Source: Bacteriovoracia bacterium (GTDB lineage: Bacteria > Bdellovibrionota > UBA1018 > JBFWNL01). From it: DNA of 64,000 nucleotides. The stretch is taken from contig JBFWNL010000004.1 of NCBI GenBank assembly GCA_050251055.1, positions 256,001 to 320,000 of the forward strand. Direction: 5' to 3'. The number at the start of each line of letters is the position of its first letter. Position 1 is the stretch's first letter. The notes beneath the pieces are model-generated. The model ran no database searches and was not told the DNA's origin. It was given only the letters and a program-made list of their open reading frames with translations. Positions 20,470-40,400 of the stretch are shown piece after piece. The position numbers were made by a program, and so were the translations under genes.

Positions 20470-20478
20470 CAATCCTCC

Positions 20479-24235: not shown

Positions 24236-24248
24236 GACTGATCTCCGC

Positions 24249-24740
24249 TCACTTCCCGCTCATCCGATCTAGGATCTGGTCCATCTTTTTTACGTCGAGG
24301 TTTTCGTGATAACCCTCGCCGGTCATCATCGCCGGGGCGGTTCCGCAGGCCCCCAGGCATTCTTCCTCGTTCAAGGTGAACTTCATGTCCGGCGTGGTCT
24401 CGCCGCAGCGGATCCCCAGGCGCTTCTCGCAATGTTCGACGAGCTTTTCCGCCCCGCGCAGGGCACAGGCGACGTTCGTGCAGATGCGCAGGTGATTTTT
24501 CCCCACCGGCTTGAGGTTGTACATGGTGTAAAAGCTCGCCACCTCGCGGACCTGGGCCGGGTGGATACCGATGTACTGGGCAATCTCGTCCATCACTTCG
24601 CCGGGGAGCCAGCCATATTCGTCTTGGGCGGCATGCAAAGCCGGCAAGAGGAGCGCCACCTTGGTCGGGTAGCGCGGCTCTAATTTTTTCATTTCGCCGT
24701 AGAATTTTTCGGACAGATTTTTCATATTTCCCTGGGCCAT
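24249..24740 (-). CDS. nuoE: NADH-quinone oxidoreductase subunit E
   Basis: VASFYTMY, CTNVAC, CLGACG. Confidence 0.96.
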   Translation of the reverse strand: MAQGNMKNLSEKFYGEMKKLEPRYPTKVALLLPALHAAQDEYGWLPGEVMDEIAQYIGIHPAQVREVASFYTMYNLKPVGKNHLRICTNVACALRGAEKLVEHCEKRLGIRCGETTPDMKFTLNEEECLGACGTAPAMMTGEGYHENLDVKKMDQILDRMSGK

Positions 24741-24753
24741 ACTTGCCGCCTTA

Positions 24754-26037: not shown

Positions 26038-26049
26038 CGCTTTATCCGC

Positions 26050-26619
26050 CTATTTCAACAGTTCTGGATCCAGAGGTTCCGCGGTCGGGAAGATCTGGTA
26101 GCCACGCAGCGGGTAATCCTTCCGCAACGGGTGGCCTTCCCAGCGCATGTCCATCAGGATTCGCCGCAGATCTGGGTGGCCCGCGAACTTGATCCCGAAC
26201 ATGTCCCACACTTCGCGCTCGGCCCAGTTCGCGCCTTGCCAAAGTGAAATCAGGGTCGGCACGGTATCGTTCTCGGCCACGGGGGCCTTCACCCGGAGGC
26301 GCCAAAATTTTCCGGGCGCCGCGAGGTTATACACGACGTCGAATCGCGGTTCGCGTGGGGACTCATCGGTCGCCGTCAAATCGGCAAGGAAGCCGTACTC
26401 GAAGCCCGGCTCGTTCTTCAAAAAGGTCATGATCTCGACGATCGACTGCTTGTCGACGGTGATAATCGGCACGTCCGTGCGGCTTTCCCCCGGCATCTGG
26501 ACGCCGAGGATTTTCGCGCCGAATTTGGCCTTTAGCTGCGTGACTTGCGTCTTCCACGTTTCGCCAAAGCGCGTGGGCCAGTCGCCGTAAATCGTGGGAA
26601 CGGGGGTCCGGACGTCCAT
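26050..26619 (-). CDS. nuoC: NADH-quinone oxidoreductase subunit C (canonical copy)
   Basis: ANWAEREVWDMFGIKFAGHPDLRRIL, GHPLRKDYPL. Confidence 0.97.
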   Translation of the reverse strand: MDVRTPVPTIYGDWPTRFGETWKTQVTQLKAKFGAKILGVQMPGESRTDVPIITVDKQSIVEIMTFLKNEPGFEYGFLADLTATDESPREPRFDVVYNLAAPGKFWRLRVKAPVAENDTVPTLISLWQGANWAEREVWDMFGIKFAGHPDLRRILMDMRWEGHPLRKDYPLRGYQIFPTAEPLDPELLK

Positions 26620-26626
26620 GTCGGTT

Positions 26627-27133
26627 TTACTCCTTCACCGTCTTGAAAATTCCGTGCTCTTTGCGCTGCGCCTGGGTCGCGCCCTTCGCGATGAGGTCCT
26701 GCAGCCGCATCAGCCCGTGCAATACGCCTTCCGGCGCGGGCGGGCAGCCCGGTACGTAGACGTCCACCGGAATGATGGTGTCGATCCCTTGGGTGACGCT
26801 GTACACGTTGAAGATCCCGCCCGAGGAAGCGCACGCGCCGAAGGACATGACCCACTTCGGGTCGGACATCTGGTCGTAAACATTGCGCAACACGGGCGCC
26901 ATCTTGGCGTTGATGATCCCGGCCACGATCATCAGGTCGCTCTGGCGGGGCGAAAAGCGAATCACTTCCGCGCCGAAGCGGGCCATGTCGTAGTCCGCGC
27001 TCAGCGTGGCCATCATTTCGATCCCGCAACAGCTGGTGCCGAAGGGCAGGGGCCAGAGCGAGTTCTTGCGCGCCCAATTGATGACGACGTCGAGTCGCGT
27101 AGTGAGATACTCTGAAGAACCGTCTTTACTCAT
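26627..27133 (-). CDS. nuoB: NADH-quinone oxidoreductase subunit B (canonical copy)
   Basis: [26 protein letters not shown]. Confidence 0.97.
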
Positions 27134-27154
27134 GGCTGACTCCTGGCTTTCCCA

Positions 27155-27514
27155 TCAATCCCATTCCAGCGCACCCTTGCGCAGGATGTAGACGTAACCC
27201 ACGAGCAGAATCACCGCGAAGGTGCCCATCTCGAGGAGAATGAACGAGTTAATTTCGAGAAACTTTTTGTAAACGATCGCCCACGGAAAAAAGAAGACCG
27301 CTTCCACGTCGAACAGCAGGAAGAGGATGGCGACCAGATAGAACCGAACCGACACGCGTTGCTGGGCGTTACCATGCGCTGGCACGCCGCACTCAAATGG
27401 GGATTCTTTCTGTGGATTCTTGGATTTAGGACCGAAGAGTTGCGACAGAATAAGCGCGCCGCCGCCAATGACTGCACCAGCCCCCATCATGATCAAAATC
27501 GGAATGTAATCCAT
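27155..27514 (-). CDS. nuoA: NADH-quinone oxidoreductase subunit A (canonical copy)
   Basis: PFECG, FYLVAILFLLFDVEAVF, KGALEW. Confidence 0.96.
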   Translation of the reverse strand: MDYIPILIMMGAGAVIGGGALILSQLFGPKSKNPQKESPFECGVPAHGNAQQRVSVRFYLVAILFLLFDVEAVFFFPWAIVYKKFLEINSFILLEMGTFAVILLVGYVYILRKGALEWD

Positions 27515-27546
27515 CACCTATTTATAAACGTCTAAATGGGTGAGGG

Positions 27547-29028
27547 CTACCCTAAAATCAGCTCGAGAGAGCGGCCCGTCCAATACAAAATCGGTTCGGC
27601 GAAGATGCTGAGCAAGCCGACGGGTACAAGCAAAAGAATCAAGAACGCGCGCTGTCGCGGAACAAATGCGAGGGGTGGGTTCGTATTTCCCACGTACTCC
27701 CGATACTGTCCCATGAGCTGGAAACAGAGCCGGCCGAAGACCGCGACCGACACCAAACTCGAACCCACCGCGAGCGCCGCGAGACCAAACCACTCCCGTT
27801 CGACGATGGCGTCGACGAGCGCGAAGCGACCGATGAATCCCGGCAATGGCGGGAAACCCACAAAGCTCGCCAGAAAGAACACTAAACACAAGCATTCTGG
27901 TAAGGATTTGGCGAGCATTCCTCGAAAATCAGAAAGTCGATCAGATCCTAACCGATCGAAAAAGAAGGAAAATACCCCAAAAATTCCAGCCAGAGAAAAA
28001 AGATCAACCAAAAGACAGTAGAGCAGTGCGGCAACTCCACTGTGATTCAATACTAAGAGGCCCATCATTAAGAAACCCATGTGCGCCACGAGCAGGGCAC
28101 TCACCAGGCGCTTCGCGCCTTGTTGCCGAAGCGCCAGTAACGACCCAACCACCATCGTCGTCCCCGACACGAGCGCCACGATCTGCGGCCACTCCGTCAA
28201 AAGCTGACCGCCGGATGCCGCCACATCGGCGGCGCCCGGCCCGCCGAACACGACGAGAAAGAAACGAATCGCAACGGCGATCCCCACGGTCGGAATTCCC
28301 AAACCCAGATAAATCCCCGAAGGCGTGGGCGCGCCTTCAATCACGTCCGGTACCCAGAGGTACATCGGAAAAACCCCGGCGAAGAAACTCAGCGCGAGAA
28401 AAATCAGCACGAAGACCAGCAAGCCCGTCTCGCGCGGGATAGGATTCGCGGCCAGTGCGGCGTGAATCTCGTAAATATTTAACGTATGCGTGAGCGTAAA
28501 GAGGATGGCGATGCCGAACAGGAAGAAAACCGAAGCCACGGCGCCGAAGACCAGGAACTTAATGGCCGCCTCCGTCGAGCGCACCTCCTCCTTCGCGTAC
28601 CCGGCGGCGAAATAGCCGATCACGCACATGAGCTGGCACCCCAGGAAAATCAGGAGCAGATCGACCGAACAAACGACCAGGCACATCGCGAGCGCGGCCG
28701 CGACGAGGAACACGAAGTACTCCGTGCGCCGGCTTTGCCGGATTTCGGCGGAAAAATAAACCGTAATGGCCGCGAGCACCGCCAGCACGAGCAAGAAGAG
28801 CTTGAAGAAGATGGAAATACCGTCGATGACGATCGAACCGCCGAAAAGTTTCGTCCCCAAGCTTTTATAAGTAAAGAGCACCTGGATAAAAGCGGTACCG
28901 AGCCCCAGCAAGGTGGTGCCCACCACGACCCGGGTGCGTTCGCCCCGATAAGCGATTTCGGCGAAGACTAGCCCCGCCAAGGTCAGCAGCAGGTAGGCCT
29001 CGGGCATGAAAAGCAGAAATTCCTGCAA
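27547..29028 (-). CDS. nuoN: NuoN-like subunit of the divergent 11-subunit complex I paralog
   Basis: EAAIKFLVFG, WVPDVIEGAPTP, KRLV..AHMG, GFPPLPGFIG; full length, conserved Glu/Lys replaced. Confidence 0.88.
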   Translation of the reverse strand: MQEFLLFMPEAYLLLTLAGLVFAEIAYRGERTRVVVGTTLLGLGTAFIQVLFTYKSLGTKLFGGSIVIDGISIFFKLFLLVLAVLAAITVYFSAEIRQSRRTEYFVFLVAAALAMCLVVCSVDLLLIFLGCQLMCVIGYFAAGYAKEEVRSTEAAIKFLVFGAVASVFFLFGIAILFTLTHTLNIYEIHAALAANPIPRETGLLVFVLIFLALSFFAGVFPMYLWVPDVIEGAPTPSGIYLGLGIPTVGIAVAIRFFLVVFGGPGAADVAASGGQLLTEWPQIVALVSGTTMVVGSLLALRQQGAKRLVSALLVAHMGFLMMGLLVLNHSGVAALLYCLLVDLFSLAGIFGVFSFFFDRLGSDRLSDFRGMLAKSLPECLCLVFFLASFVGFPPLPGFIGRFALVDAIVEREWFGLAALAVGSSLVSVAVFGRLCFQLMGQYREYVGNTNPPLAFVPRQRAFLILLLVPVGLLSIFAEPILYWTGRSLELILG

Positions 29029-29057
29029 GAAACTCCCCTTCTATTTACTTCCGGCCC

Positions 29058-30581
29058 TTAGGCCGACAACGCCGCCAAAAGCTGGGCGACCGACGGGCGA
29101 ATCACGTCCAACAACGGTTTGGGATAGACCCCGAATACGATCAACAATCCTACGATCGGCGTGAAGCAAAGTTTTTCCCGCCAGGTCAGGTCAAAGACCC
29201 GTTTGGATTCACCCCGCTCGTGCCCCAGGAATATCTTCATGAACACCTGGAACAAGCCGTACACGAGCACCACGAAAGATGCTCCAATCACCAAGACGGA
29301 AAACACCGAAACTCCGAAACCGCCGATCAAGATCAGCGACTGTCCGACGAAACCGCCCAGCCCCGGCACGCACAGCAAAGCGCCCAGAATTAAGCTCACG
29401 GTTAAGGTGAGCACGGGTGAGTGGCGAACGACGCCCCCGAAATGCGGTTGGCCATCGTCGCCCAGGAAGCTCGTCTTCTCCGTGCGTTCGCGCAGCAAAC
29501 CAAAGAAAAGACCGAAGCCCGAAAGCGCGAGGCCAAACGCGAACTCGTGGTAGAGCGATCCCACGACGCCGGCGGAGCCGCCCGAAGCGATGCCCACCAG
29601 GGAAAGACCGATCTGGTTCATACAAAGATACGCGAAGACCATGCGCAGCTCGCGCTGGGCCACGCATAGGATGGCCGAAAAAATAAATCCCACTTCGCCA
29701 ATGGCCAAAATCCAAGGCTGGAAATGCGACATTTCCATCGGAAAAATGAGGTATCCCAGCTTTGTAAAAAGATAGAGCGCCACGGGGACGAACACGCCGC
29801 CGAATGCGATCGCCACCGAGGCCGGCGCCTGCGTCATCGCGTAGGTGAACCATCCGTGGATCGGCCAGATCGGAATGCGCAGCATGAACGAAAGCGCGAA
29901 AAGCAGAAAGGCCAGACGCGAGACCGGCATATCCAGGCCGAGCATCGACACCTCGCCCTTCCAGAACTTGCCCCCGAAAAGCTCCTTGATCGAAAAACTA
30001 TTGGGATCCACCGAGTAATAGATCAGGATCAGGACCACAAAAAACAGCGCGCTGCCCGCCGAGGCGGTGACGAAAAACCGGAAGCCGGCTTTTTCCCGGG
30101 CTTCATCGCCCCAGATGATGAATAGGAAGTAAAACGGCAAGGCGCTGAGCAGCCAGAAGAAGCAAACCAGGAATAGATTTTGGGCGGTCACCACCCCGAT
30201 CAGCGTCGCTTGCAGCAATAGAAAAAGGGCCTGCATGCCCATGCGCCCGCTCGGCTGCTTCCACTCCGCGCCGATCAGGATCGGGAAGATCACGGCGATC
30301 AGAAGCACGAGCGGGGCGTTCAACCCGTCCAGGCCGACCGCGTAAGCAATGGAATACGAGTCCACCCAGGAAAGCGATTCCAACCCCTGAAACAGCGTCG
30401 CGCCCTTATTAAACTGGGCCAACAGCGCGAAGGCGCACAGACTGGACAGGATGCTCGACACGAGCCCGATCCACTTGATCCACGGCACGGATTTGGAGTT
30501 GGAAAAGAGCGGCGAAAGCCCCAGCCCGAGCACGCCCAACAACGGAAACAAGATAGTGAGACTGCAAAGGTAGTTCAACAA
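29058..30581 (-). CDS. nuoM: NuoM-like subunit of the divergent paralog
   Basis: GLDGL, IPIWPIHGW, QAP, PGLGGFVG, DLTWRE, GVYP. Confidence 0.88.
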   Translation of the reverse strand: MLNYLCSLTILFPLLGVLGLGLSPLFSNSKSVPWIKWIGLVSSILSSLCAFALLAQFNKGATLFQGLESLSWVDSYSIAYAVGLDGLNAPLVLLIAVIFPILIGAEWKQPSGRMGMQALFLLLQATLIGVVTAQNLFLVCFFWLLSALPFYFLFIIWGDEAREKAGFRFFVTASAGSALFFVVLILIYYSVDPNSFSIKELFGGKFWKGEVSMLGLDMPVSRLAFLLFALSFMLRIPIWPIHGWFTYAMTQAPASVAIAFGGVFVPVALYLFTKLGYLIFPMEMSHFQPWILAIGEVGFIFSAILCVAQRELRMVFAYLCMNQIGLSLVGIASGGSAGVVGSLYHEFAFGLALSGFGLFFGLLRERTEKTSFLGDDGQPHFGGVVRHSPVLTLTVSLILGALLCVPGLGGFVGQSLILIGGFGVSVFSVLVIGASFVVLVYGLFQVFMKIFLGHERGESKRVFDLTWREKLCFTPIVGLLIVFGVYPKPLLDVIRPSVAQLLAALSA

Positions 30582-30584
30582 AGC

Positions 30585-32519
30585 TTATGTCCCCAAATAG
30601 AAGTGCCCGAGCAAAGCGACGACAAAAAACAAGACCAGCAACAAATACCATTGCAGATCACCGTTTTGTACCACCTGCACGACTTTGGCTGGCACTATCA
30701 TACTCTGCTTGAGTACCCAATCAATCGATTTTGCCGAGACCCGGTCTATTTTCGCGAATCCGCGCGCGGTATGCTCCAGGCTTTTCCCGGCGAAATCCGC
30801 CATTTTTTTCTGCCACAATCGCCGGGCAAACACGGCATCGAGCGCGATCGAAGCGCGCGCGATCGAGTTCCACGCTTTCCCCACCCCTTCATCGACGAAG
30901 AAGCCTTGCGCCACAAAGCGATAAAAGGGGGGACGCTTCTTCTCCCACTTAGCGAAGACGTTACGCATCCAGTAAGCGATCAACAGGCCCGCGAGAACCG
31001 CGGCGAGCTGCGTGGGAACGATGCGCTGGACCGAATCCAACGTCAGGTGCCGGGCATCGATCAGCTCCTTCGGATACTCCAGCAAGCTAAACTGAAAGAG
31101 ACGGTCACTCCCGTCGCGAAGCAGATCGCCCGTCAGGGTGCCCGACCAAGTCAAAGTCAGCACCGAAACCAACGCCAGCCAAACGAAAACATTCAGACTC
31201 CAATGCATCAGCGGCGTCGAGAGTCGACGCCACGACGCCAGGAGGATGCGAAAGAACGAAAAGCCCAAGGCAAGGTAGAGAATCACGGCCGTCGCGAGCG
31301 CGGGCGGATTCTCCCAAAGCGCGCCCAACAACGGCACGGCGCCCAGGGTACCGACCCAGCCCGGCAGGCCCAAAGCGGCCCCCACGGCAAAAACGGCGGC
31401 GACCTTGTTCATCACCGAACCCGATGCCGCTTTCGTTTCCTTCGGCTTGCCGCGCTCGTCACCAAAAAGCAGGGCAAACAGCACGAGAGCGCCCAATGTC
31501 GCGGAAACGAAAACCATGAAGCCGGCGCCGGCGCCCACGAATGCGAGCGCCGTGAGCGAGCCGCACTGAGCGGCGTTTAACCAGCAAGCCAGGCCACGCT
31601 TGGCGTTCTCTTGAAACCCCGCCACCAAAGCGGAAATCATTCCCGACGCCGCCCCGACGTAACCCAGCACGGGAAGGATACCCACTTCCCGCAGATGCGG
31701 CTCGAGTCGATAAAGCAGGCAAAATGCAGACGAAGCCAAGAACACCTGGCAAACCAGCGTTCGCGGCAGCACCAACGCTTCCGGGGTGGCGGCGATCCAG
31801 TTCAACCAGGGGAAGCCGCGCAACAAAAGATAAGCCCCTAGTACGAGCAGGGTCGCACCGAACTCCACAGAACCCAGCTGCGGCCAAGCCCCGTATACGT
31901 CGTACCGCAAGGAAGCGCCGGCATGCACCAAAACGCCCGCCCCCACCGCTACCACGAAAATACCGAGCACCGGCTCGGAGAGCTGTCGCACGGGGAAGGT
32001 TTCGGACTCTTCGCTGGCGGTGGCCACCAGCGCCAGCCCGGCGGCCAACACGCAGCCCGCGACGCCAATCAAGGTCATCCAAGGAGTAGAGGACTGCCAG
32101 GCGATGCCACTGCCGATCGCGCCGCACAGCAAAGCCGTCGCAAGTTTACGGGTCGGCTTGGCGGACTCGCCGGAAATAACGAACGTCAACACCGTGAGCA
32201 AAATTCCGAGCAGGATCCAGCTTTGCCCCACGACATCGTAGGCGAACCCGACCTGAATACCGACGGGGGAGGACGTAGGGTCGATCCATCCACGCATCCA
32301 ACTTAACGAGCCGCCTTCCCTTAAATTTTCCCAAAGGAGCAAAAAGGCACGGACGTTCAAACCAAAAGTCAACGCCGCGACGATTCCAAAGCCCCATCGG
32401 ACAAATGCCAGACGCCCTCCCGGGGTGAGGCGCCCGGCGAAATAAAATGCCCAAGCCACTGCAACCAAGGAGAGGGTGGGCAAAACGGCGGTGACGAGCG
32501 AGGTGCTTTCGAATCTCAT
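30585..32519 (-). CDS. nuoL: NuoL-like subunit of the divergent paralog (highly diverged)
   Basis: Lies between the K-like and M-like genes; multi-TM; GLPGWVG, FFVDE lateral helix, C-terminal VQNGDLQWY matches VQTGSLQVY of the canonical NuoL. Confidence 0.8.
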   Translation of the reverse strand: MRFESTSLVTAVLPTLSLVAVAWAFYFAGRLTPGGRLAFVRWGFGIVAALTFGLNVRAFLLLWENLREGGSLSWMRGWIDPTSSPVGIQVGFAYDVVGQSWILLGILLTVLTFVISGESAKPTRKLATALLCGAIGSGIAWQSSTPWMTLIGVAGCVLAAGLALVATASEESETFPVRQLSEPVLGIFVVAVGAGVLVHAGASLRYDVYGAWPQLGSVEFGATLLVLGAYLLLRGFPWLNWIAATPEALVLPRTLVCQVFLASSAFCLLYRLEPHLREVGILPVLGYVGAASGMISALVAGFQENAKRGLACWLNAAQCGSLTALAFVGAGAGFMVFVSATLGALVLFALLFGDERGKPKETKAASGSVMNKVAAVFAVGAALGLPGWVGTLGAVPLLGALWENPPALATAVILYLALGFSFFRILLASWRRLSTPLMHWSLNVFVWLALVSVLTLTWSGTLTGDLLRDGSDRLFQFSLLEYPKELIDARHLTLDSVQRIVPTQLAAVLAGLLIAYWMRNVFAKWEKKRPPFYRFVAQGFFVDEGVGKAWNSIARASIALDAVFARRLWQKKMADFAGKSLEHTARGFAKIDRVSAKSIDWVLKQSMIVPAKVVQVVQNGDLQWYLLLVLFFVVALLGHFYLGT

Positions 32520-32523
32520 GGGT

Positions 32524-32811
32524 TCAGTGCCGCAGCTTTCTGAACGTTTCAATATTCACGTTCTTCTTTAGATAAAAAAGCCGGGTCGCGAGCGAAAACA
32601 CCACGAGTAGCTGCCCGCAGCCCGCGACGATCACGAAAAACCCGTACACGTGTCCCTGCGACTGCAGGCCCGCCAACACCCCGCCGACCGAAAAACAAGC
32701 CGCCGCCGCGTAAAATAACAAGACGATCCCAATGGCCATCCCAATCAGGTTACGCTTCAAAAGGAGGCAAAAAAATCCAATGGCCGCCAGCGCGACGGGA
32801 ATGGCGATCAT
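32524..32811 (-). CDS. nuoK: NuoK-like subunit of the divergent paralog
   Basis: IGFFCLLLKRNLI, three TMs, GHVYGFFVI, C-terminal NIETFRKLR. Confidence 0.85.
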   Translation of the reverse strand: MIAIPVALAAIGFFCLLLKRNLIGMAIGIVLLFYAAAACFSVGGVLAGLQSQGHVYGFFVIVAGCGQLLVVFSLATRLFYLKKNVNIETFRKLRH

Positions 32812-33281
32812 TCCGACTTTCCCTCCGATCGCGAAACCACGCCCACCCCCAGCATCACCAGGAACAGCGTGAGCGCGAGTATCTCCAGCGGAAGCAGCTG
32901 GGAGCCGAACAACGTCGCGCCGAACTGAACCACCTCATTCGGAGGAAACGCGACTTCGCCGCCCTCAGGCAGGTAACGTACCGCGAGACCCGTCACCGTC
33001 GCCAGGCAGGCGGCGGCCAGGAGGGCCGTCGCGCGATAAAAGAAATTCGCCGGGCGTTCCCGCGACCCGAAAAGCACCACGTAGAACAAGAACACCACGG
33101 CGCAAACCGACGTAATCACCCACTGCGAGACCGCCAGGAATTCCGATCCTGTCGCGAGGAAGCTCGCGCCCAAGGCCATGCCGCAAACCCAAAGGGAAAA
33201 CAGCGCGAGCCGATAGTTCGCCGCCATCGCCGCCACCAGCGCCGCCGCGACCGCCAAAATCCCAAAGCTCCAAAAGACCAT
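32808..33281 (-). CDS. nuoJ: NuoJ-like subunit of the divergent paralog
   Basis: SEFLAVSQW, FGATLF..LLPLEILALTL; TGATG-coupled to the nuoI-like gene. Confidence 0.82.
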   Translation of the reverse strand: MVFWSFGILAVAAALVAAMAANYRLALFSLWVCGMALGASFLATGSEFLAVSQWVITSVCAVVFLFYVVLFGSRERPANFFYRATALLAAACLATVTGLAVRYLPEGGEVAFPPNEVVQFGATLFGSQLLPLEILALTLFLVMLGVGVVSRSEGKSE

Positions 33282-33817
33282 CAATCCTCCATGTTTTCGC
33301 GTTGGCGCGCCTGGATCCACTTTTCCCTCTGCTCGGGCGAAATTCGCCCCCGGCCGAAGGTGGTCACCAGATTCGATACATCATAGACCGCGCCCTCGAA
33401 TTGCTTGGTGTGCACCAGGGAACCCGGGTGGCAAGCCTCCACGCAAAGGCCGCAAAAAATGCATTGCCCGAAGTCGATGTCGTAGACCGAAACCCACTTT
33501 TTCGACGGATCCGGGCCATGCTCGGTCTCCACGGTAATGCACTTCACCGGGCAGATCCGCTCGCATTCCTGGCAACCCGTGCAGCGGTCGATGTCGTTGA
33601 ACAACAATCCGCGCGTGCGGGGCGGCAGATCGTCCTCGGTGCGCGAAGACACCGGATCGGGGTACTGCTCGGTGATCTCCTTACGAAGCTCGCCCGTGTT
33701 AAAAAGATAGTGAAAACCGCTAACGGCGGAAACGAGCACCGACCGCACGCCGGCGCCCACCTGGACTGCGTAAGACATCAGCGTGGAAATCAATGTGTCT
33801 TTCATAGGTATCGACAT
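33281..33817 (-). CDS. nuoI: NuoI-like 2x[4Fe-4S] subunit of the divergent paralog
   Basis: TEQYPD, RTRG, CTGCQECERICP, CIFCGLCVEACHP. Confidence 0.92.
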   Translation of the reverse strand: MSIPMKDTLISTLMSYAVQVGAGVRSVLVSAVSGFHYLFNTGELRKEITEQYPDPVSSRTEDDLPPRTRGLLFNDIDRCTGCQECERICPVKCITVETEHGPDPSKKWVSVYDIDFGQCIFCGLCVEACHPGSLVHTKQFEGAVYDVSNLVTTFGRGRISPEQREKWIQARQRENMED

Positions 33818-33827
33818 CCGCTCGTGC

Positions 33828-34892
33828 TCAAAACAAACTCCGTCCTCCGAGCCAGAGGCACTCGATCAGTAGCGCTCCCAACGCGCAGGGTCCCAGGATC
33901 CGCCAGCAAAACTCCGTCGTTTGGTCCGAGCGCGGCTTCGGCAAGGACCCCACCACCCAATGCGTCGCAAACATCAACAAAAAGACCTTCATCACAAGAT
34001 TCACGAGCTGCACGACCTGCAGAAGCAAACCCTCTCCCGTCAGGCTCACCGCCCAGCCCGGCAGCTTCCAACCCCCAAGAAAGGTGACCGTGGTGGCAAG
34101 CGCCCAAAAAAAACCGCCGTAGAACCGCAGCAAGCGCGTGATGGAAAGACTGGGCCCGGCCACTCCCTGAAAAAAACCGCCTTGGAGATCCGCCCGGGAA
34201 AATCCCGCGTCGAAAGGCGAAACCGAAAACACAACCAGGCCGCCCAGGTAATACGCCAGGAAAACGATGGTAAAGAGAGGCCACGGCTGTTGAAAAACCA
34301 GCCACGAGCCTGGCCAGAAACCCTGATGTTCGAGGATGGCCTGCCACCGGTAACCGCCCACGGCCAGTCCCACACAGAGGATGGAAACCATCACCACGAA
34401 TCCCCCCGATAGGGCCTGGGCGGTGTTGCGGATCATTCCGACCCAGCCTTGGGCGTCGCGCCGGTAAAACCCGTAGAACAAAAAGAAAAAGCTCAAAATA
34501 ATCCCGAAGATCAGCGGCACGAACGCGCTCATATCGGTGTCGAATAGATTAAAGCGTGAGGAGAGCGGGATCGTGAGCACGGACGCGAGCGCCACGCACA
34601 GCAAGGTTCCCAGCCAGAAAAGCTCAGCACGGCGAGGCTTGTGAGCGGGTGACTTCTGGATCAGCTTGAAAAAATCCGCGAGTGGCTGGAAATAGCCGCG
34701 CGGCCCGGCCTCCGCAGGGCCCACGCGAGCTTGCAGGTCCGCGAAGAATTTCCGACGGACGTAAACATCCAAATAAGCCATGGGAACGAGCAGAAGCGCA
34801 ACCACGGCGAGGAAAAAACAAAACAGGAAAAGAATATCCGGCAAGCCGGCGAACATTCCCAAGGTTTGGCGAAGCTCCGGGAGTGCGTTCAT
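33828..34892 (-). CDS. nuoH: NuoH-like subunit of the divergent paralog
   Basis: QARVGPAEAGPRG..QPLADFFKLIQK, SPFD, FLGGW, LPKPRSDQ. Confidence 0.9.
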   Translation of the reverse strand: MNALPELRQTLGMFAGLPDILFLFCFFLAVVALLLVPMAYLDVYVRRKFFADLQARVGPAEAGPRGYFQPLADFFKLIQKSPAHKPRRAELFWLGTLLCVALASVLTIPLSSRFNLFDTDMSAFVPLIFGIILSFFFLFYGFYRRDAQGWVGMIRNTAQALSGGFVVMVSILCVGLAVGGYRWQAILEHQGFWPGSWLVFQQPWPLFTIVFLAYYLGGLVVFSVSPFDAGFSRADLQGGFFQGVAGPSLSITRLLRFYGGFFWALATTVTFLGGWKLPGWAVSLTGEGLLLQVVQLVNLVMKVFLLMFATHWVVGSLPKPRSDQTTEFCWRILGPCALGALLIECLWLGGRSLF

Positions 34893-36034
34893 CGATCGGC
34901 TTCTCCCACCGAGATATCCAGACTAGCAAGGATCAAAGGGAAATCGCCCACCCACTGTCCGACCAGGATCTCGGGCACCGCCTGTAAGAGCGCCTTGCTC
35001 CCTCCCCGGACCTGCAAGCGATAAGGGGTATTTCCGCCGTCGGAGACCGCATGGACGGCCAGGACTCCGCGTGCCCCTTCGACGCGCGAATACGCCTCGC
35101 CCTCGGGCACCTTGAAATCGAAAAGCTCCTTCACGGCGCGGTATTCGCCCACCGGAATATTCTCGATCGCCTGGCGGATTATGTCGACGCTCTGGACGAT
35201 CTCACGCAGCCGCACGACCACGCGGTCGTGCACGCCGCCCAGCCGATCGCCCTCTCCTGATCCCACCGGCACCTGAAACTCGAACTCTTCGTATCCACTG
35301 TAGGGCGCGGACTTTCGCATGTCCGACACGACCCCGGACGCACGCGCGTCCGGGCCCGTGATGCCGTACCGGCGCACGACCTCCGGGTGCAGGAGCCCCA
35401 CGCCGGCGGACCGGCGCTGAAAAATATGATTCGACGTGAAAAGGTCCTGATACTCGCGTACCCGCGTGCGAATCAGGTCGCACACTTCCGAGACCCGCTC
35501 GATAAATCCGTCGGTGATATCGGTGGCCACCCCGCCGAAGCGGAAATAATTCAGGTTAAAGCGCGAACCGCTGATCAGCTCGAAAAGATCCAGGATTTTT
35601 TCGCGGTCGCGCAGGACGTAATGCATCACCGTCTCGAGCTCCACGGTCTTCGCGATCCGTAGTAGCGCGCCCAAATGGGCGCTGATTCGGTTCAGCTCGC
35701 AGAGCGTGACGCGGATCCGGTTGGCGCGAGGGGAGACCTGCAGGCCGGCGATTTCCTCCACCGCCAGGCACACCGCCAATTCGGTAAATAGCGCGGTCTC
35801 CGAATCGATCCGGTCGGCGTAGGGCATCACGCTGTACCACTGCTGAAGCTCGATGGCCTTTTCCACGCCCCGATGAAAAAAACCTGATTCGCAGTGCACG
35901 CCGGTGATCATCTCGCCGTCGAGCTGCAGCTTCAGCGCCATTGGCCCCGGCAGTCCCGGATGGAATGGCCCCAGCTCCCACGCCGTCTGCACGGTGCTAA
36001 ACAGGTCGGGGCGGTCGTTCTCCATTTCCACCAT
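34889..36034 (-). CDS. nuoD: NuoD-like subunit of the divergent paralog
   Basis: LGPFHPG, GFFHRGVEK, ELNRISAH, GITGPDARASG, VEGARG, DISVGEADR; no NiFe CxxC motifs; ATG at 36034 follows the nuoC-like stop. Confidence 0.92.
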   Translation of the reverse strand: MVEMENDRPDLFSTVQTAWELGPFHPGLPGPMALKLQLDGEMITGVHCESGFFHRGVEKAIELQQWYSVMPYADRIDSETALFTELAVCLAVEEIAGLQVSPRANRIRVTLCELNRISAHLGALLRIAKTVELETVMHYVLRDREKILDLFELISGSRFNLNYFRFGGVATDITDGFIERVSEVCDLIRTRVREYQDLFTSNHIFQRRSAGVGLLHPEVVRRYGITGPDARASGVVSDMRKSAPYSGYEEFEFQVPVGSGEGDRLGGVHDRVVVRLREIVQSVDIIRQAIENIPVGEYRAVKELFDFKVPEGEAYSRVEGARGVLAVHAVSDGGNTPYRLQVRGGSKALLQAVPEILVGQWVGDFPLILASLDISVGEADR

Positions 36035-36036
36035 GG

Positions 36037-36534
36037 CTAGATTTCCTCGCTTCGCCGCGGACGCGGAATTTCCGGCAGACGGAACTCGCGCCGGAGGGGG
36101 TAGCCCGTGATCTGCTCCGGCACCGGCCGGAAGGAGACGTTTTTTTCCGTGGGATGCGTGAAATCGATCCCTAGGAGCGCCTGCAGTTCCGACTCGAACT
36201 GCCACGCGGACGGGAAGATCGGCTGAATCGAAGGGATCGCGTAAAGTCCGCCGGAATCGGCTTCCAAGCGCGTCCGGAAGATCACCCGCTGCTGGGTACG
36301 CTGGGACACCAGGAAGTATGTCAGCACCATCTTCGACTTCTCTTCGTAGCCGGAGATGCACTCAAGGAAATCCGCCTCGGTTTCGGCGTCCTCACGGCAA
36401 GCCCGCACCGCGACTTCCACCGCGTCCGGGCGCAAAGTGAAAAACGGCACCTGGGCCGCCCCGAAGGTCCCCACCGAGACCACGCCTCCCGAACGGCGAT
36501 CGTTAATAGACGTCTTTAAATTTTTTAGATCCAA
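36037..36534 (-). CDS. nuoC: NuoC-like subunit of the divergent paralog
   Basis: IPSIQPIFPSAWQFESE...GIDFTHP, GYPLRREF. Confidence 0.88.
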   Translation of the reverse strand: MDLKNLKTSINDRRSGGVVSVGTFGAAQVPFFTLRPDAVEVAVRACREDAETEADFLECISGYEEKSKMVLTYFLVSQRTQQRVIFRTRLEADSGGLYAIPSIQPIFPSAWQFESELQALLGIDFTHPTEKNVSFRPVPEQITGYPLRREFRLPEIPRPRRSEEI

Positions 36535-36973
36535 TGATCTTCTCCTGGAGGGTCAAAAGCCCGTTCATCACCGCTTCGGGTCGCGGTGGACAGCCGGAAA
36601 CGAAAACATCGACCGGAATCAGTTTCTCCACGCCGGGCACGACGGAATAACTGATGCCCGGGGAAAACGCGCCGCCGGTGCACGCGCATCCACCAACGGC
36701 CAAGACGTACTTGGGCGAAGGCATCCGATCGTAAAGTTCCTTCAAAACCGGCGCCAGTCGGTAAGTGATCGCGCCGCTCACGATCAGGAGGTCCGCCTGC
36801 AGCGGATCGACCTGCGGCAGGCTGCCGAAACGTTCGAGGTCGTAGCGGCAACCGAAGGCGTTCGTCACCTCATCCGAGCAGCAGCCGGTGCCGACGGAAA
36901 AATACCAAAGCGATTTCGCGCGAGACCACTTCAGCAACGAATCCACGGACGTGACCTTGAAGAATGCGCTCAC
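36503..36973 (-). CDS. nuoB: NuoB-like [4Fe-4S] N2 subunit of the divergent paralog
   Basis: GCCSDE, YDLERFG, QADLLIVSG, GGCACTGG, SGCPPRPE; GTG at 36973 overlaps the nuoA-like TGA. Confidence 0.93.
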   Translation of the reverse strand: MSAFFKVTSVDSLLKWSRAKSLWYFSVGTGCCSDEVTNAFGCRYDLERFGSLPQVDPLQADLLIVSGAITYRLAPVLKELYDRMPSPKYVLAVGGCACTGGAFSPGISYSVVPGVEKLIPVDVFVSGCPPRPEAVMNGLLTLQEKIIGSKKFKDVY

Positions 36974-37362
36974 GCCTCGTCTTCCTTTCGGAAGGACTTC
37001 AGCCATTCGAGATCGCCCTTGCGGATCGCGTAGAAGAGCCCCAGGCCCAGAAAAGCTCCGATAGAAACGATCGCGGCCAATCCCCGCAATCCGGTTTCGG
37101 CGGAGGAGGAATTCAACGATTCGCGGAACGCCGCCACGCAGGGAGCGAGCACCAATACCAAGAGCACGAGCAATGTCGCGATGTTACCGAATAAAGAGAT
37201 ACGGGGGTTCAGCTTCGCATCCCAAACGATCGGCTTTAGCGGCGTCGCAGTTCCACCGAGCGGCCCGCCATCCCGACGAAAGAATCGCCCCATCAGCAGC
37301 ACGAGGATCGGCACACAGATGCTAAATAGAGCGCATATAATGATAACTACATACGAGCCCAA
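36970..37362 (-). CDS. nuoA: NuoA-like subunit of the divergent paralog
   Basis: Three TMs, C-terminal YAIRKGDLEW; probable TTG start at 37362 after a GGGGA RBS. Confidence 0.8.
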   Translation of the reverse strand: MGSYVVIIICALFSICVPILVLLMGRFFRRDGGPLGGTATPLKPIVWDAKLNPRISLFGNIATLLVLLVLVLAPCVAAFRESLNSSSAETGLRGLAAIVSIGAFLGLGLFYAIRKGDLEWLKSFRKEDEA

Positions 37363-37460: not shown

Positions 37461-40400
37461 ATGAATTCGGGTGAACTGCCCCTCATCTTGAAACAGATGG
37501 GTACCCTACCGGTTTTCCGGCTGGGCGGCGCATTACCTTCGGCCCAAGCCTACCTTTGCCGCCAACTTCCGCATTCGCTTTCCATCGTCGTCTGCCAGGA
37601 CGAGGACGCCGCGACGGTCTTCGCGCAGAACTTACAAGCCCTGAGTTTGGAAGATTCGGACGCCCCGCTTGTTTTGTCACTACCCAGCTGGGAGCAATCC
37701 CCTTACAGCGCGATCTCGCCGTCAATCCAGGTGCGTCAATCCCGCGCCCGCGCGCTCGCGCACGTCCTCGAAAATCAAGACGGCGGAAGCGGGCGTGGCC
37801 TGCTTGACCCGACATCGCGTGGCCTCATCGTCGTCACGACCCTGGTCGCCCTGAGCCAACGTACCTGTCCGCCTTCGCTCTTTCGGGAAGCTCGCATCGT
37901 TTTGGAAAAAAACGGGGTGGTTGGTCAACGCGAGCAGCTCACCTCCCGGCTGCGAGACGCGGGCTACCTGCAGGTGGATCCGGTGGAAGATCCGGGCACG
38001 TTCGCGGTAAGGGGCGACATCGTCGACGTGTACCCTCCCCAAGCCGAGGCGCCTCTCAGAATTGAGCTCTTCGACGACCAGGTGGAACGCATCCGGGAAT
38101 TCGATCCCGCCACCCAACGCACAAGGACCGGTGTCGAACACGCGCGCTTCGTGATTTATCCCGCCCGCGAAGTCCTGATCCACCCCTCCAACCGCGAGGC
38201 CTTCCGTCAGCGCCTCAAACAGCGCGCCGATGACTTGGGCATCCCTCGCCAAACCCGCGATCCCGTCCTGGAAACCCTCGCTAACGGATTCTATCCCGAG
38301 GGCGCGGACTACTGGTCCGCACTGGCGTATGAAGGAAAACACGTTTTTCGTGATTTCCTCGGGAAAAATGCGACTTTTTTCTTCTCCGACGAGTTAGGCT
38401 GCCGGCAAGCGTTTGAGGCTTTCCAAGTCCGCCAGCGTGAACTGTCCGAGGAGGCAAAGGGCTCCGGTCGGGTGGTTCTGGATTTTCCGGACATATTTTC
38501 GAAGGTCGATGCGGAAGCCGCAGCGTTCGATAGTTACCGGCGGGTTTACTTCGATGCCTTGGAGCTCGCCGACCGCGCGCTCGACGTGCGCGTGGAAACT
38601 TCGCCGATCGTGGCGAACTCCCCCGACACCGCCCGTGGCGCCGAACGAATGGCTCAGTTCGCGGCCCGGATTAAATCCCTGGGCGCATCGCCCACGCTGC
38701 TGGGTTTCGCATCCACCCAAAGCCAGATCGATCGCATGCAGTACCTTTTCCAAGAGAACGGGTTGCCTCCGGCGCGTTGGCGGATCGGAGCGTGGGGCGA
38801 GGGCTTCGCCTGGCCAGCGCAAAACCTCGCGGTATTCTCTCAGGCCGATGTCTTGGGCGAGACCAAGAAACCTTCGACGACTGCACCCAAGCAATGGTCG
38901 GGGCTGCAGAACCTCTCGGACCTGAACGTGGACGACACGATCGTTCACGTCGAACACGGGATTGGCGTTTACCGCGGGATATCGCGGCTCCAGATCATGG
39001 GGGGCGCTTCCGACTTCCTGCTGATCGAATACGACGAACAAGCGAAGCTTTACTTGCCCGTCTATCGCATCAATCTCATCCAGAAGTACGTGGGTGGCCG
39101 CGAGGGAATGAAACTCGCCAAGCTCGGCGCCGGCGCATTCGAAAAGACGAAGGCGAAGGTGCGGGATTCGGTGAAGAAACTCGCCATCAACCTTCTCGAG
39201 GTCTATGCGCAGCGAAAAATCCAAAAAGGCCTGCGTTTCCCGGCCCGGGACGCGATTTTTCAAGAATTCGAGGACCGCTTCCCTTTCCAGGAAACCCCGG
39301 ATCAGACGCAGGCGATCGAGGATTCGTTCCGGGACCTCGAATCGGGACGCATCATGGACCGCTTGATCTGCGGTGACGTAGGGTTCGGCAAGACGGAGGT
39401 CGCGATCCGCGCGGCTTTCCAAGCCGTGATCAGCGGCAAACAGGTGGCCGTGCTCGTGCCGACCACCATCCTCTGCATCCAGCACGAACAGACGTTCAAG
39501 AACCGCATCCAAAAGTTCCCGATTCGCGTGGAGTCTATCTCGCGCTTCAAAACCCGTCCCGAGCAGCAGAAATTACTGCAGGAGCTCGCGGAGGGAAAAA
39601 TCGACGTTCTCATCGGAACGCACCGCCTATTATCAAAGGACGTGAACTTCAAAAAGCTCGGGCTCATCATCGTCGACGAAGAGCACCGCTTTGGTGTCGA
39701 GCACAAAGAGAAGCTGCGCGCCATGAAGGCCAACACCCACGTAATGACGTTGACGGCGACCCCCATCCCGCGAACCTTACATATGGCGCTCGCAGGGATC
39801 CGCGACATCAGCCTCATGACCACGCCGCCCGTGCATCGGTTGCCGATCAAGACTTTCGTCGCGAAGTACGACGAAACCCTCATCAAGCAGGCGATCGAAA
39901 CCGAGCTGGCGCGCGACGGCCAGGTCTTTTTCCTCCATAACCGGGTGCAGACCATCTTCCGCCAGGCCGAAAAGATCCAAGCTTTGGTGCCCGCGGCGAA
40001 GGTGCGGGTCGGCCACGCCCAGATGACGGAAAAAGAACTCGAAGACACAATGCTGGCGTTCTATCGCAAGGAATTCAACGTTTTGGTCTGCACGACCATC
40101 ATCGAATCGGGGTTGGATATCCCGTCCGCGAACACGATCCTCATCAATCACGCCGATCGCTTCGGGCTCGCCCAGCTCTACCAACTGCGCGGGCGCGTCG
40201 GCCGCAGCAACCAACGCGGGTACGCTTACCTACTGCTGTCGAATGACCTCGCCCTTACCGAGGATGCCAAACGAAGGCTGGAGGTCATCCAGCGTTTCGT
40301 GGAACTCGGCAGCGGCTTCCAAATCGCCTCGCATGATCTCGAAATCCGTGGTGGAGGGAACGTGCTAGGCCCCGAGCAGTCGGGCAACATCGCCTCCGTG

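What the first reader, a model, noticed from the sequence alone, without database searches (positions are those of the whole stretch)
27547..37362. Intact but apparently pump-dead second complex I: an 11-subunit nuo paralog stripped of its proton-translocating residues
Seen: a complete, in-order A-B-C-D-H-I-J-K-L-M-N cluster (no E/F/G) with full-length frames and mostly overlapping or closely spaced start/stop codons lies directly upstream of a canonical nuoA-N. The canonical copy serves as an internal reference (canonical > paralog). NuoK: CIELML>GIVLLF, AAAESA>GCGQLL. NuoA: FDVE>LVLL. NuoJ: VYAG>WVIT. NuoN: ALELM>GCQLM, FKVA>FFAG, GIKAA>GIPTV, VTKY>IGRF. NuoM: FWEAM>FWLLS, AIKVP>MLRIP, LLKMG>FVPVA, SHMG>NQIG, IGEF>VGQS. 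NuoL: WEGV>VAGC, HAFFK>ATLGA, FSKD>VGTL. NuoH: VERR>VRRK, SYE>SGG, and the acidic ETNRLPFDLPEGESE loop >FSVSPFDAGFSRAD. Established: these Glu/Lys/His residues form the E-channel and central hydrophilic axis and are normally retained in active 11-subunit relatives (Fpo, NDH-1). Inference: about 10 kb with no frameshift, yet concerted loss of the pumping axis, points to a pseudo-enzyme complex I with a new role. Candidates are a structural or dimer partner of the active complex, an assembly template, a subunit-swap off switch, or a redox-sensing scaffold. I know of no description of such a system.
Basis: partly seen in the sequence, partly recalled or inferred. Interest (0 to 1): 0.93.

Follow-up and report, generated by a model that had tools for sequence, protein, structure and literature searches.

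The report
Conserved complex I copy stripped of catalytic residues
A group of uncultured Bdellovibrionota keeps a complete second 11-gene respiratory complex I that has lost the residues known to bind quinone and move protons but keeps its iron-sulfur sites and is still under strong selection, so a whole respiratory machine seems to have been put to another, unknown use.

Summary
On the minus strand, 27547-37440 holds nuoA-B-C-D-H-I-J-K-L-M-N with no E/F/G. It lies 29 bp upstream of a fully canonical 14-gene nuo operon. Alignment to E. coli shows loss of the NuoL/M/N Glu/Lys axis, NuoK E36/E72, NuoA D79/E81, NuoJ Y59 and NuoH E157. All 12 Cys ligands of clusters N2, N6a and N6b are kept.

The same tandem array occurs in 56 related Bdellovibrionota loci (class UBA1018). 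The same sites are neutralised in 33-58 orthologs per subunit. Concatenated dN/dS is 0.05-0.09, against 0.03-0.05 for the canonical genes. At columns invariant in canonical enzymes the copy keeps 159 of 309 residues, but only 1 of 23 catalytic ones.

Other Bdellovibrionota classes carry the orthologous 11-subunit isoform with every catalytic residue intact. This is therefore lineage-specific conversion of a working enzyme, not decay.

My best reading is a non-pumping, iron-sulfur-bearing complex I derivative co-expressed with the active one. Its actual role was not tested. Seven literature searches found no description of it.

The parts
D79/E81 equivalents are V/L.
   Evidence: (Pfam below cut-off)
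36503..37006 (-). nuoB-like gene. All four Cys ligands of cluster N2 and E67 are kept.
36037..36534 (-). nuoC-like gene, strongly diverged.
34889..36037 (-). nuoD-like gene (382 aa from MVEME; frame open up to 36361). H224>P, Y273>S, L274>E, D325>T. It has the ~25-residue deletion typical of the 11-subunit isoform.
33828..34892 (-). nuoH-like gene. E157>G and the acidic TM5-6 loop is largely neutralised. R37, D63, K70, R148 and R293 are kept.
33281..33817 (-). nuoI-like gene. All eight Cys ligands of N6a/N6b are kept.
32808..33320 (-). nuoJ-like gene. Y59>T, G61>V.
32524..32811 (-). nuoK-like gene. E36>V, E72>Q.
30585..32552 (-). nuoL-like gene with no Pfam or NCBIfam hit. Its fold is full-length NuoL with a lateral helix. 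E144, K229, K342, K399 and D400 are all lost.
29058..30581 (-). nuoM-like gene. E144>L, K234>R, K265>P, E407>Q.
27547..29028 (-). nuoN-like gene. E133>Q, K217>F, K247>P, K395>R. E154 and K158 are kept.
27518..27546 (-). 29-bp spacer between nuoN-like and canonical nuoA. No terminator-like site lies in it.
14079..27517 (-). canonical nuoABCDEFGHIJKLMN. All scored catalytic residues are present. NuoG is only 466 aa.
37461..40922 (+). mfd, divergently transcribed. It marks the upstream end of the array, and this synteny is kept in 41 related loci.

Best explanation
The eleven genes encode a complete, L-shaped, complex-I-type assembly of their own. It descends from the 11-subunit (no NuoEFG) second complex I isoform of Bdellovibrionota. 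In the UBA1018 lineage it has lost canonical quinone reduction and redox-driven proton pumping, yet it has been kept under purifying selection.

Shown here:
- All frames are intact.
- The Fe-S ligands for N6a, N6b and N2 are invariant.
- The quinone-head ligands (NuoD H224, Y273, D325), the E-channel acids (NuoH E157, NuoA D79/E81, NuoK E36/E72) and the TM5 Glu and TM7/8/12 Lys of NuoL/M/N are replaced, mostly by conserved neutral or non-titratable residues (Gln, Pro, Arg).
- The array sits 6-264 bp upstream of the active nuo operon in 56 loci.

Inferred:
- It is co-transcribed with the active enzyme.
- The peripheral arm still carries electrons from a cytoplasmic donor, either a ferredoxin/flavodoxin-type carrier or the shared NuoEFG module, down to N2.
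- The membrane arm now serves as an anchor rather than a pump.
- Electrons leave at a remodelled site (Pro224, Pro/Ser273-Glu274, His at E. coli position 333) to an acceptor that is not bound in the canonical way. Alternatively the cluster chain acts as a redox-sensing store.

In short, it is a non-pumping, Fe-S-bearing derivative of complex I that works beside the pumping one.
For: Gene content and order.

Residue losses against E. coli numbering were checked on the sequence. Passages of PMC8357420 name D-Tyr273, D-His224, K-Glu36, K-Glu72, N-Glu133, A-Asp79, H-Glu157 and J-Gly61.

Family-wide counts:
- NuoL: E144, K229, K342 and K399 kept in 0 of 50.
- NuoM: E144 kept in 0/54, K234>R in 54/54, K265>P in 50/54.
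- NuoN: E133>Q in 38, >L in 16 and >F in 4 of 58.
- NuoK: E36>Q in 34/38, E72>Q in 31/38.
- NuoD: H224>P in 35/41, Y273>P in 36/41, acidic residue at 274 in 40/41.
- Fe-S ligands: NuoB Cys in 40-41/41, NuoI eight Cys in 51/51.

An independent alignment to T. thermophilus Nqo4 puts Pro opposite H38.

Selection: concatenated dN/dS for the copy versus the canonical genes is 0.056 vs 0.053 (3137 and 2724 codons), 0.050 vs 0.033, and 0.094 vs 0.035 in three pairs.

The loss is selective: NuoD keeps 50/54 other canonical-invariant columns but 0/3 quinone-site ligands; overall 159/309 vs 1/23.

The Fe-S subunits are the best conserved. Median identity to the window is B 60, I 57, D 51, against L 26, C 28, A 32.

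Synteny: 12 of 13 loci and 56 loci with nuoN-like followed by canonical nuoA.

Sister classes: both membrane sets and the separate B-C-D-I cluster keep every scored residue. Trees place the copy with that isoform on a long branch.

The genome has no other NuoD, NuoF or antiporter-like genes. In one family (L139) the membrane genes are shorter and no longer recognisable, while B, D and I keep all their Cys.
Against: No expression, protein, activity or structural data exist. No RNA run holds the sequence, so co-transcription and assembly are inferred.

Loss of function is read from sequence only. Methanosarcina FpoD also has Pro at H224 and lacks D325, yet belongs to a working pump. Two families of the order keep Y273.

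Some charged axis residues persist: NuoM R234; NuoN K158; R247 in 49/58; K or R at 395 in 57/58; E at position 305 in 26/58; and E at NuoM 322 in 31/54. A reduced or altered ion path in NuoN/M is therefore not excluded.

Fe-S ligands may be kept only because NuoB and NuoI cannot fold without their clusters. That would fit a purely structural role. The electron donor and acceptor are unknown, and no conserved neighbour gene points to either.
Confidence: 0.6

Rival explanations
1. It is a whole-complex pseudoenzyme with no catalysis of its own. The dead complex I is a structural, assembly or regulatory partner of the active complex I made from the same transcript (heteromeric pair, membrane organiser, or a decoy for the NuoEFG module).
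For: The tandem array has short spacers in 56 loci, which implies linked expression. All catalytic residues are lost, but the fold and subunit set are kept. Selection acts on all eleven genes, including NuoL at dN/dS 0.09-0.13. There is only one NuoEFG set in the genome.
Against: The 12 Fe-S ligands are invariant, and B, I and D are the most conserved subunits. In family f11 the membrane genes shrink while B, D and I persist, which is hard to square with a membrane-arm scaffold. No contact surface is known and no binding test was run.
Confidence: 0.2
2. It is still an energy-converting enzyme. It would use a different acceptor or binding mode (as Fpo does for methanophenazine) and a reduced or rewired ion path through NuoN/NuoM using the remaining Lys/Arg/Glu.
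For: FpoD of Methanosarcina has Pro at position 224 and lacks D325. NuoN keeps K158 in 58/58, R247 in 49/58 and K395 in 46/58. NuoM keeps R234 in 54/54. Y273 is kept in two families.
Against: TM5 Glu is absent from all three antiporter-like subunits (0/50, 0/54, 0/58). Both NuoK Glu, NuoA D79/E81 and NuoH E157 are neutral. NuoL has no conserved charged residue in the membrane. The substitute residues at NuoM 322/407 and NuoN 217/305 vary among orthologs. Arg cannot shuttle protons (general chemistry, recalled).
Confidence: 0.12
3. Individual subunits of the copy swap into the canonical complex to make hybrid, down-regulated enzymes (a subunit-swap switch).
For: The genes are co-located and the subunit folds are homologous.
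Against: All eleven subunits are kept together in every complete locus and have diverged together (26-60% identity to the window, against 58-79% for the canonical ones). Interfaces have therefore probably drifted apart. The sister-class isoform is a separate full set.
Confidence: 0.05
4. It is a decaying, non-functional duplicate on its way to loss.
For: It diverges fast over the long term, and NuoL falls below family detection. The set is shrunken in family f11.
Against: There are no stops in any match. dN/dS is 0.05-0.09. It is retained in all families sampled for it: the NuoL profile hits f1, f4 (55/58), f5, f6, f7 and f12, and a second NuoD is found in 5 of 5 genomes of f2, f8, f9, f10 and f11. 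The replacement residues are themselves conserved.
Confidence: 0.03

Closest known systems
The intact 11-subunit second complex I isoform of other Bdellovibrionota classes (nuoAHJKLMN upstream of the second membrane set, plus a separate nuoB-C-D-I cluster). The nuoAHJKLMN cluster is mentioned in PMC13147790 (passages read).
   Same: It is the same isoform by descent. NuoH and NuoM trees join the two, and NuoD shares the ~25-residue deletion. The subunit set is the same 11, and it sits directly upstream of the other nuo set.
   Different: In those classes every scored catalytic residue is present and the genes are split over two loci. Here all eleven genes are in one cluster and the quinone ligands, E-channel acids and antiporter Glu/Lys are replaced.
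11-subunit complex I relatives without NuoEFG: Fpo of Methanosarcina, cyanobacterial or plastid NDH-1, and bacterial 'Nuo11' (PMC11238625, abstract only).
   Same: The subunit composition matches. The best PDB matches of NuoD are Nqo4 (1e-74) and cyanobacterial NdhH (2e-73), and of the NuoL profile NdhF. FpoD also lacks His224.
   Different: Those enzymes keep the membrane-arm charges and pump (established knowledge, recalled). This one does not keep them.
Ehr (energy-converting hydrogenase-related) complexes and MBS/Mbx. These are complex-I-like assemblies whose large subunit lacks the Ni-Fe ligands (PMC6349859, passages read; PMC7684303, title and abstract start only).
   Same: The catalytic subunit has lost the ancestral active-site ligands while the Fe-S relay is kept. 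The substrate is unknown or non-canonical. The MBS title reports catalysis by an Fe-S cluster.
   Different: Ehr and MBS branch with group 4 hydrogenases and have other subunit sets. Here NuoD scores far higher to Nqo4 (1e-74) than to the MBH or FHL large subunits (2e-40, 2e-33), and the set is exactly Nuo11. Ehr complexes are thought to translocate ions; this complex has lost the residues for that.
Catalytically dead paralogs that partner active enzymes, e.g. trypanosomatid deoxyhypusine synthase (PMC3663545, search listing only).
   Same: A catalytically stripped homolog is kept under selection beside the active one.
   Different: Those cases involve a single protein. Here eleven subunits changed together, and no partnership has been shown.

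Membership tests
Proton-pumping NADH:quinone oxidoreductase (complex I, Nuo/NDH-1) | Homologs of the 11 core subunits A, B, C, D, H, I, J, K, L, M, N | tested here: met
   Pfam and NCBIfam hits for nine subunits. A is weak (below cut-off). L is assigned by fold only and by a profile hit to NdhF.
Proton-pumping NADH:quinone oxidoreductase (complex I, Nuo/NDH-1) | Cys ligands of Fe-S clusters N2 (NuoB) and N6a/N6b (NuoI) | tested here: met
   12 of 12 in the window. NuoB 40-41 of 41 and NuoI 51 of 51 orthologs.
Proton-pumping NADH:quinone oxidoreductase (complex I, Nuo/NDH-1) | Quinone head-group ligands NuoD His224 and Tyr273 and the partner Asp325 (E. coli numbering) | tested here: not met
   The window has P, S and T. 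Among orthologs His is kept in 0/41, Tyr in 0/41 and Asp in 0/41. Pro lies opposite T. thermophilus H38.
Proton-pumping NADH:quinone oxidoreductase (complex I, Nuo/NDH-1) | E-channel acids: NuoH E157, NuoA D79/E81, NuoK E36/E72 | tested here: not met
   Kept in 0/50, 0/33, 0/33, 0/38 and 0/38 orthologs.
Proton-pumping NADH:quinone oxidoreductase (complex I, Nuo/NDH-1) | TM5 Glu and TM7/TM8/TM12 Lys (Glu in NuoM) of the three antiporter-like subunits | tested here: not met
   NuoL keeps none of 4 in 50 orthologs. NuoM has only Arg at 234. NuoN has lost E133 and K217; K395 is kept in 46/58 and K247 in 2/58.
Proton-pumping NADH:quinone oxidoreductase (complex I, Nuo/NDH-1) | NADH-oxidising module NuoE, F, G | tested here: not met
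   The cluster holds no such genes. The genome has a single NuoF, in the canonical operon. Sharing that module is not excluded.
11-subunit complex I relatives (Fpo / NDH-1 / Nuo11) | Eleven-subunit set without EFG, with an intact charged axis in the membrane arm | tested here: not met
   The subunit set is met and the axis is not. The orthologous isoform of sister classes meets both.
Ehr / group 4 hydrogenase-related complexes | The large subunit groups with group 4 [NiFe] hydrogenases and lacks the Ni-Fe ligands | tested here: not met
   NuoD-like matches Nqo4, NdhH and NuoCD at 1e-74 to 1e-66, but the MBH and FHL large subunits only at 2e-40 and 2e-33. In the tree it lies on a deep branch apart from both the canonical clade and the hydrogenase-labelled representative. 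Taxon labels for most representatives are missing.
Pseudogene cluster | Frameshifts or stops and dN/dS near 1 | tested here: not met
   No stops inside any match. dN/dS is 0.05-0.09 when concatenated and 0.00-0.16 per gene.

The most novel reading that the evidence does not exclude
An entire 11-subunit respiratory complex has become a pseudoenzyme and has been kept for class-level evolutionary time as an obligate partner of the active enzyme. The 25-gene transcript would yield one live and one 'charge-frozen' complex I (Glu>Gln, Lys>Arg/Pro). The two would pair in the membrane. The dead copy would shape, gate or sense the live one through its Fe-S chain and would compete for the single NuoEFG module.
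Probability: 0.15. Interest if true: 0.95.

Novelty: new variant of a known kind. Interest (0 to 1): 0.82.

Why it matters
[quoted passage not shown] Nature has here done a concerted mutagenesis that no laboratory has done. Every residue of the quinone site, the E-channel and the lysine/glutamate axis is neutralised across eleven subunits, while the fold, the Fe-S chain and selection are kept.

Sister lineages hold the unaltered ortholog as a built-in control. If the complex assembles, it offers three things:
- a natural 'frozen' state for structural work on coupling;
- a test of what a complex I chassis can do besides pumping, such as uncoupled electron disposal, a new reductase activity, sensing, or partnering the active enzyme;
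- a rare case of pseudoenzyme evolution at the scale of a whole multi-subunit machine.

It also matters for annotation. Pipelines would count these genomes as having two complex I enzymes, and energy budgets inferred for this class, including the magnetotactic FG-1/FG-2 organisms, would be too high.

Tried and rejected
- A word-based search with NuoL-like found only the protein itself. This reflects the method's sensitivity and is not evidence that the protein stands alone; six-frame searches then found orthologs.
The NuoM alignment was used instead.
- Expression: no RNA holder was listed. Only two DNA runs of one landfill-metagenome study hold the stretch, and they may be its source.
- The promoter and terminator scan gave counts no higher than shuffles (4 vs 2.8; 27 vs 22). 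I used it only to note that no terminator-like site lies in the 29-bp spacer.
- Neighbours of the B-C-D-I cluster in two sister-class genomes gave no hint of an electron donor: an MCP, an RDD protein, a urate-oxidase-like protein, a glycosyltransferase, a rhodanese and several proteins with no family.
- The listing of cluster members gave no taxon for 18 of 20 divergent NuoD representatives. Whether the family reaches beyond Bdellovibrionota therefore stays open.
- The first dN/dS run contained mis-extracted frames: nonsense values for parD in L046/L048 and for parB and parJ in L031/L034. It was redone from tblastn alignments. Genes absent from the shorter contig, or matching only the other paralog (<70% identity), were skipped and listed. 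Pairs with saturated dS (L031/L034, L050/L051, L034/L038, L028/L074) were not used.
- Complex prediction was not run, because no specific contact is claimed and homologous pairs would pass by likeness.
- The hydropathy-based membrane-segment assignment is crude.
- The Atlas feature hits to unnamed clusters of Dormibacterota and Pseudomonadota are untested leads.

Full report
WHAT IS THERE

The minus strand of window 27547-37440 carries eleven contiguous open frames in the order nuoA-B-C-D-H-I-J-K-L-M-N. Neighbours overlap or lie 3-29 bp apart, and there is no room for nuoE, F or G.

Pfam and NCBIfam recognise B, C, D, H, I, J, K, M and N as complex I subunits. Three NCBIfam matches pass the curated cut-off: NuoB NF005012 (188.8 bits, cut-off 116), NuoD NF004739 (361, cut-off 360) and NuoM TIGR01972 (274.2, cut-off 263.8). 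NuoA is below cut-off and NuoL has no hit at all.

NuoL is nevertheless a full-length NuoL by fold:
- The ESM Atlas model of this protein aligns to NuoL clusters at TM 0.76-0.79.
- A profile of 13 orthologs finds cyanobacterial NdhF in the PDB at 1.6e-9.
- My AlphaFold model has moderate confidence (mean pLDDT 67.5, pTM 0.69). It shows a 77-residue helix (553-629) followed by a terminal helix, as expected for the lateral helix and its anchor.
- The best 50 Foldseek PDB hits are all NuoL/ND5/NdhF chains.

Twenty-nine bp downstream begins a canonical nuoABCDEFGHIJKLMN (14079-27517). On the other side mfd is transcribed divergently.

CHECKING THE RESIDUES

I fetched the E. coli K-12 nuo operon as a reference. 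I confirmed on its sequence that the recalled numbering is right. Passages of the E. coli structure paper PMC8357420 name D-His224, D-Tyr273, K-Glu36, K-Glu72, N-Glu133, A-Asp79/Glu81, H-Glu157 and J-Gly61.

The canonical copy has every scored residue. The upstream copy has the following:
- NuoL: E144>A, K229>L, K342>G, K399/D400 lost.
- NuoM: E144>L, K234>R, K265>P, E407>Q.
- NuoN: E133>Q, K217>F, K247>P, K395>R.
- NuoK: E36>V, E72>Q.
- NuoA: D79>V, E81>L.
- NuoJ: Y59>T.
- NuoH: E157>G, and a largely neutral TM5-6 loop.

First, the quinone head-group ligands of NuoD are gone as well: H224>P, Y273>S, D325>T. An independent phmmer alignment puts this Pro opposite H38 of T. thermophilus Nqo4. 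Second, all four Cys of cluster N2 in NuoB and all eight Cys of N6a/N6b in NuoI are present.

IS IT CONSERVED, AND IS IT SELECTED?

A six-frame search with NuoL-like found full-length matches without stops in 15 of 41 related genomes. In 12 of the 13 stretches I fetched, the 11-gene set is followed directly by canonical nuoA. The thirteenth contig ends first.

A scan of one genome per species returned 69 loci. Of these, 65 carry the upstream-type genes. Of those 65, 62 bear Bdellovibrionota-type names, including the magnetotactic FG-1 and FG-2, which PMC13200544 assigns to class UBA1018. The other three bear other MAG labels. The remaining 4 loci, from Anaerolineae and Flavobacteriales, are canonical-type.

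Among the 63 loci L025-L087, 56 hold both nuoN-like and canonical nuoA. The spacer has a median of 34.5 bp and a range of 6-264. mfd lies divergently upstream in 41 loci.

Across 33-58 orthologs per subunit the same sites are neutralised, and the replacements are themselves conserved:
- NuoM: R234 in 54/54, P265 in 50/54.
- NuoK: Q36 in 34/38, Q72 in 31/38.
- NuoN: Q133 in 38/58, R247 in 49/58.
- NuoD: P224 in 35/41, P273 in 36/41, an acidic residue at 274 in 40/41.
- NuoL: none of E144, K229, K342 or K399 in 50.
- Fe-S ligands: NuoB 40-41 of 41, NuoI 51 of 51.

Three unsaturated species pairs give concatenated dN/dS of 0.056, 0.050 and 0.094 for the upstream set. The canonical genes of the same loci give 0.053, 0.033 and 0.035. 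Per-gene values run from 0.00 to 0.16.

At alignment columns invariant among 9-20 canonical sequences, the upstream family keeps 159 of 309 residues but only 1 of 23 pre-chosen catalytic residues. For NuoD alone the figures are 50 of 54 against 0 of 3. The loss is therefore targeted, not a by-product of divergence. The Fisher p of 3.9e-6 overstates independence, because the sequences are kin.

WHERE IT CAME FROM

A NuoL profile gives strong full-length hits only in families of the window's own order: f1, f4 (55 of 58), f5, f6, f7 and f12. In five further families of that order (f2, f8, f9, f10, f11; one genome each, 5 of 5) a second, still more diverged NuoD lies 7.5-10.5 kb upstream of the canonical one. 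In those families the key residues are lost and all Fe-S Cys are kept.

Two variations stand out. Families f2 and f8 keep Tyr273. In f11 the membrane genes are shorter (about 299, 327 and 454 aa) and have no Pfam hit, while B, D and I remain recognisable.

In ten genomes of other Bdellovibrionota families the picture is different. Eight of them carry two membrane-subunit sets in tandem. The first set is nuoAHJKLMN, the cluster noted in PMC13147790. The other two show only that first set; one of these stretches ends at the contig end. All sets found keep every scored residue, with a few deviations at the peripheral NuoH 218 and 303 positions.

Four of five such genomes also hold a separate nuoB-C-D-I cluster (nuoB was not detected in one of the four). 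Its NuoD has the same ~25-residue deletion as the window's copy but keeps H224, Y273 and D325.

FastTree trees of NuoH and NuoM put the window-type clade (support 1.0) next to that first set, on a long branch. They put the window's canonical genes with the second set.

The window's cluster is thus the UBA1018-lineage ortholog of an old, otherwise intact 11-subunit isoform. In this lineage it is gathered into one cluster and stripped of its catalytic residues. The window's genome (93.5% complete) has no other NuoD, NuoF or antiporter-like gene, so no intact version hides elsewhere.

HOW WIDE IS THE FAMILY?

A profile of 30 NuoD-like orthologs was run against 1.84 billion representatives. Among the best 150, 53 have neither His224 nor Tyr273, 8 have Tyr only, 8 have His only, 69 have both and 12 are gapped. 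Of the first 30, 24 have neither. In a tree these form a deep clade apart from canonical NuoD.

Most are unnamed metagenome proteins, so I cannot say whether they reach beyond Bdellovibrionota. One 'Pro224, Tyr273' cluster is Methanosarcina FpoD. This warns that loss of His224 alone does not kill an enzyme.

HOW IT MOST LIKELY WORKS

Shown: the set is complete, selected, bears its Fe-S ligands, and lacks the canonical residues for binding the quinone head group, for the E-channel and for the antiporter axis. The Fe-S subunits and NuoD are the best conserved (median identity to the window 60, 57 and 51%). NuoL, NuoC and NuoA are the least conserved (26, 28 and 32%).

Inferred: the eleven proteins form their own L-shaped complex, made from the same transcript as the active enzyme. 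Electrons still travel N6a-N6b-N2. The membrane arm has become an anchor. Glu>Gln and Lys>Arg/Pro keep the packing but cannot shuttle protons. Electrons either leave at a remodelled pocket or the chain serves as a redox sensor. The pocket residues are Pro224, Pro/Ser273-Glu274 and a His at E. coli position 333. The Glu and His are specific to the stripped lineage when compared with the intact sister isoform.

I put 0.6 on this reading. The rivals are a catalytically silent partner of the active complex (0.2), a still-coupled enzyme with a rewired path (0.12), subunit swapping (0.05) and decay (0.03).

The main weaknesses are these:
- Nothing shows expression or assembly. No RNA run was listed.
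- Fe-S ligands might be kept only for folding.
- NuoN and NuoM retain some positive charges.
- The electron donor and acceptor are unknown.

COMPARISON WITH WHAT IS KNOWN

By descent the cluster belongs to complex I, specifically the 11-subunit type. It fails the defining catalytic features of that family.

It resembles Ehr and MBS complexes in having lost the ancestral active-site ligands while keeping the Fe-S relay (PMC6349859 passages; MBS from title and abstract start only). It is not one of them: NuoD scores 1e-74 to Nqo4 but only 2e-40 and 2e-33 to the MBH and FHL large subunits.

Seven full-text searches found no description of a residue-stripped complex I. Passages of the two Bdellovibrionota genome papers did not mention one either, and the FG-1/FG-2 paper has no occurrence of 'nuo' or 'NADH'. 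A 2025 preprint surveying complex I across prokaryote genomes had none of six terms on Bdellovibrio, paralogs or duplication.

VERDICT

The origin is corrected and the Fe-S/quinone-site picture is added. The function remains open.

Noticed in passing
window 21564-22964 (-): Canonical NuoG is only 466 aa. It has the N-terminal Fe-S domains plus a fragment of the molybdopterin-like domain. The related loci have 455-483 aa. The usual large C-terminal domain is missing throughout this lineage.
   Followed up: partly
L097-L106 (other Bdellovibrionota families): Eight of ten loci hold two complete membrane-subunit sets (nuoAHJKLMN followed by a second nuoA..H-J-K-L-M) in tandem. All sets found have their catalytic residues intact. 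These organisms seem to run two working complex I isoforms.
   Followed up: yes
L139:8476-14814 (family f11 of the same order): The upstream set is shrunken. NuoB is 125 aa, NuoD 335 aa and NuoI 137 aa, all with their Cys. No nuoC was detected. The downstream membrane-protein frames of 269, 116, 80, 299, 327 and 454 aa have no complex I Pfam hit.
   Followed up: partly
L143:7564-10818 and L144:5386-8652: In two genomes (G185, G268) nuoL-like and nuoM-like lie in the same frame with no stop between them. The open frame is 1155-1159 aa, an apparent L-M fusion.
   Followed up: partly
proteins P0002-P0151: There is a deep, diverse clade of NuoD-like proteins without His224/Tyr273 in metagenomes: 53 of the best 150 representatives. 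Most have no taxon label. A further group with the signature H-K-G-I-E includes an Anaerolineales protein named as a nickel-dependent hydrogenase large subunit.
   Followed up: partly
window 30585-32552 (-): By language-model features, the nearest Atlas clusters after the protein's own are unnamed 552-562 aa 'hypothetical proteins', commonest in Candidatus Dormiibacterota and Pseudomonadota. They may be other degenerate NuoL-like proteins.
   Followed up: no
window 37461-40922 (+): mfd is divergently adjacent to the first gene of the array. This arrangement is kept in 41 related loci.
   Followed up: yes
window 10969-14076 (-): A 1035-aa TPR-repeat protein lies directly downstream of canonical nuoN, followed by seryl-tRNA synthetase. 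I did not examine whether it belongs to the operon.
   Followed up: no
window 19448-20008 (-): The canonical NuoJ of this organism has Gln at the position of E. coli Glu55, which the E. coli structure paper lists in the proton-exchange chain. That residue is therefore not universal.
   Followed up: no
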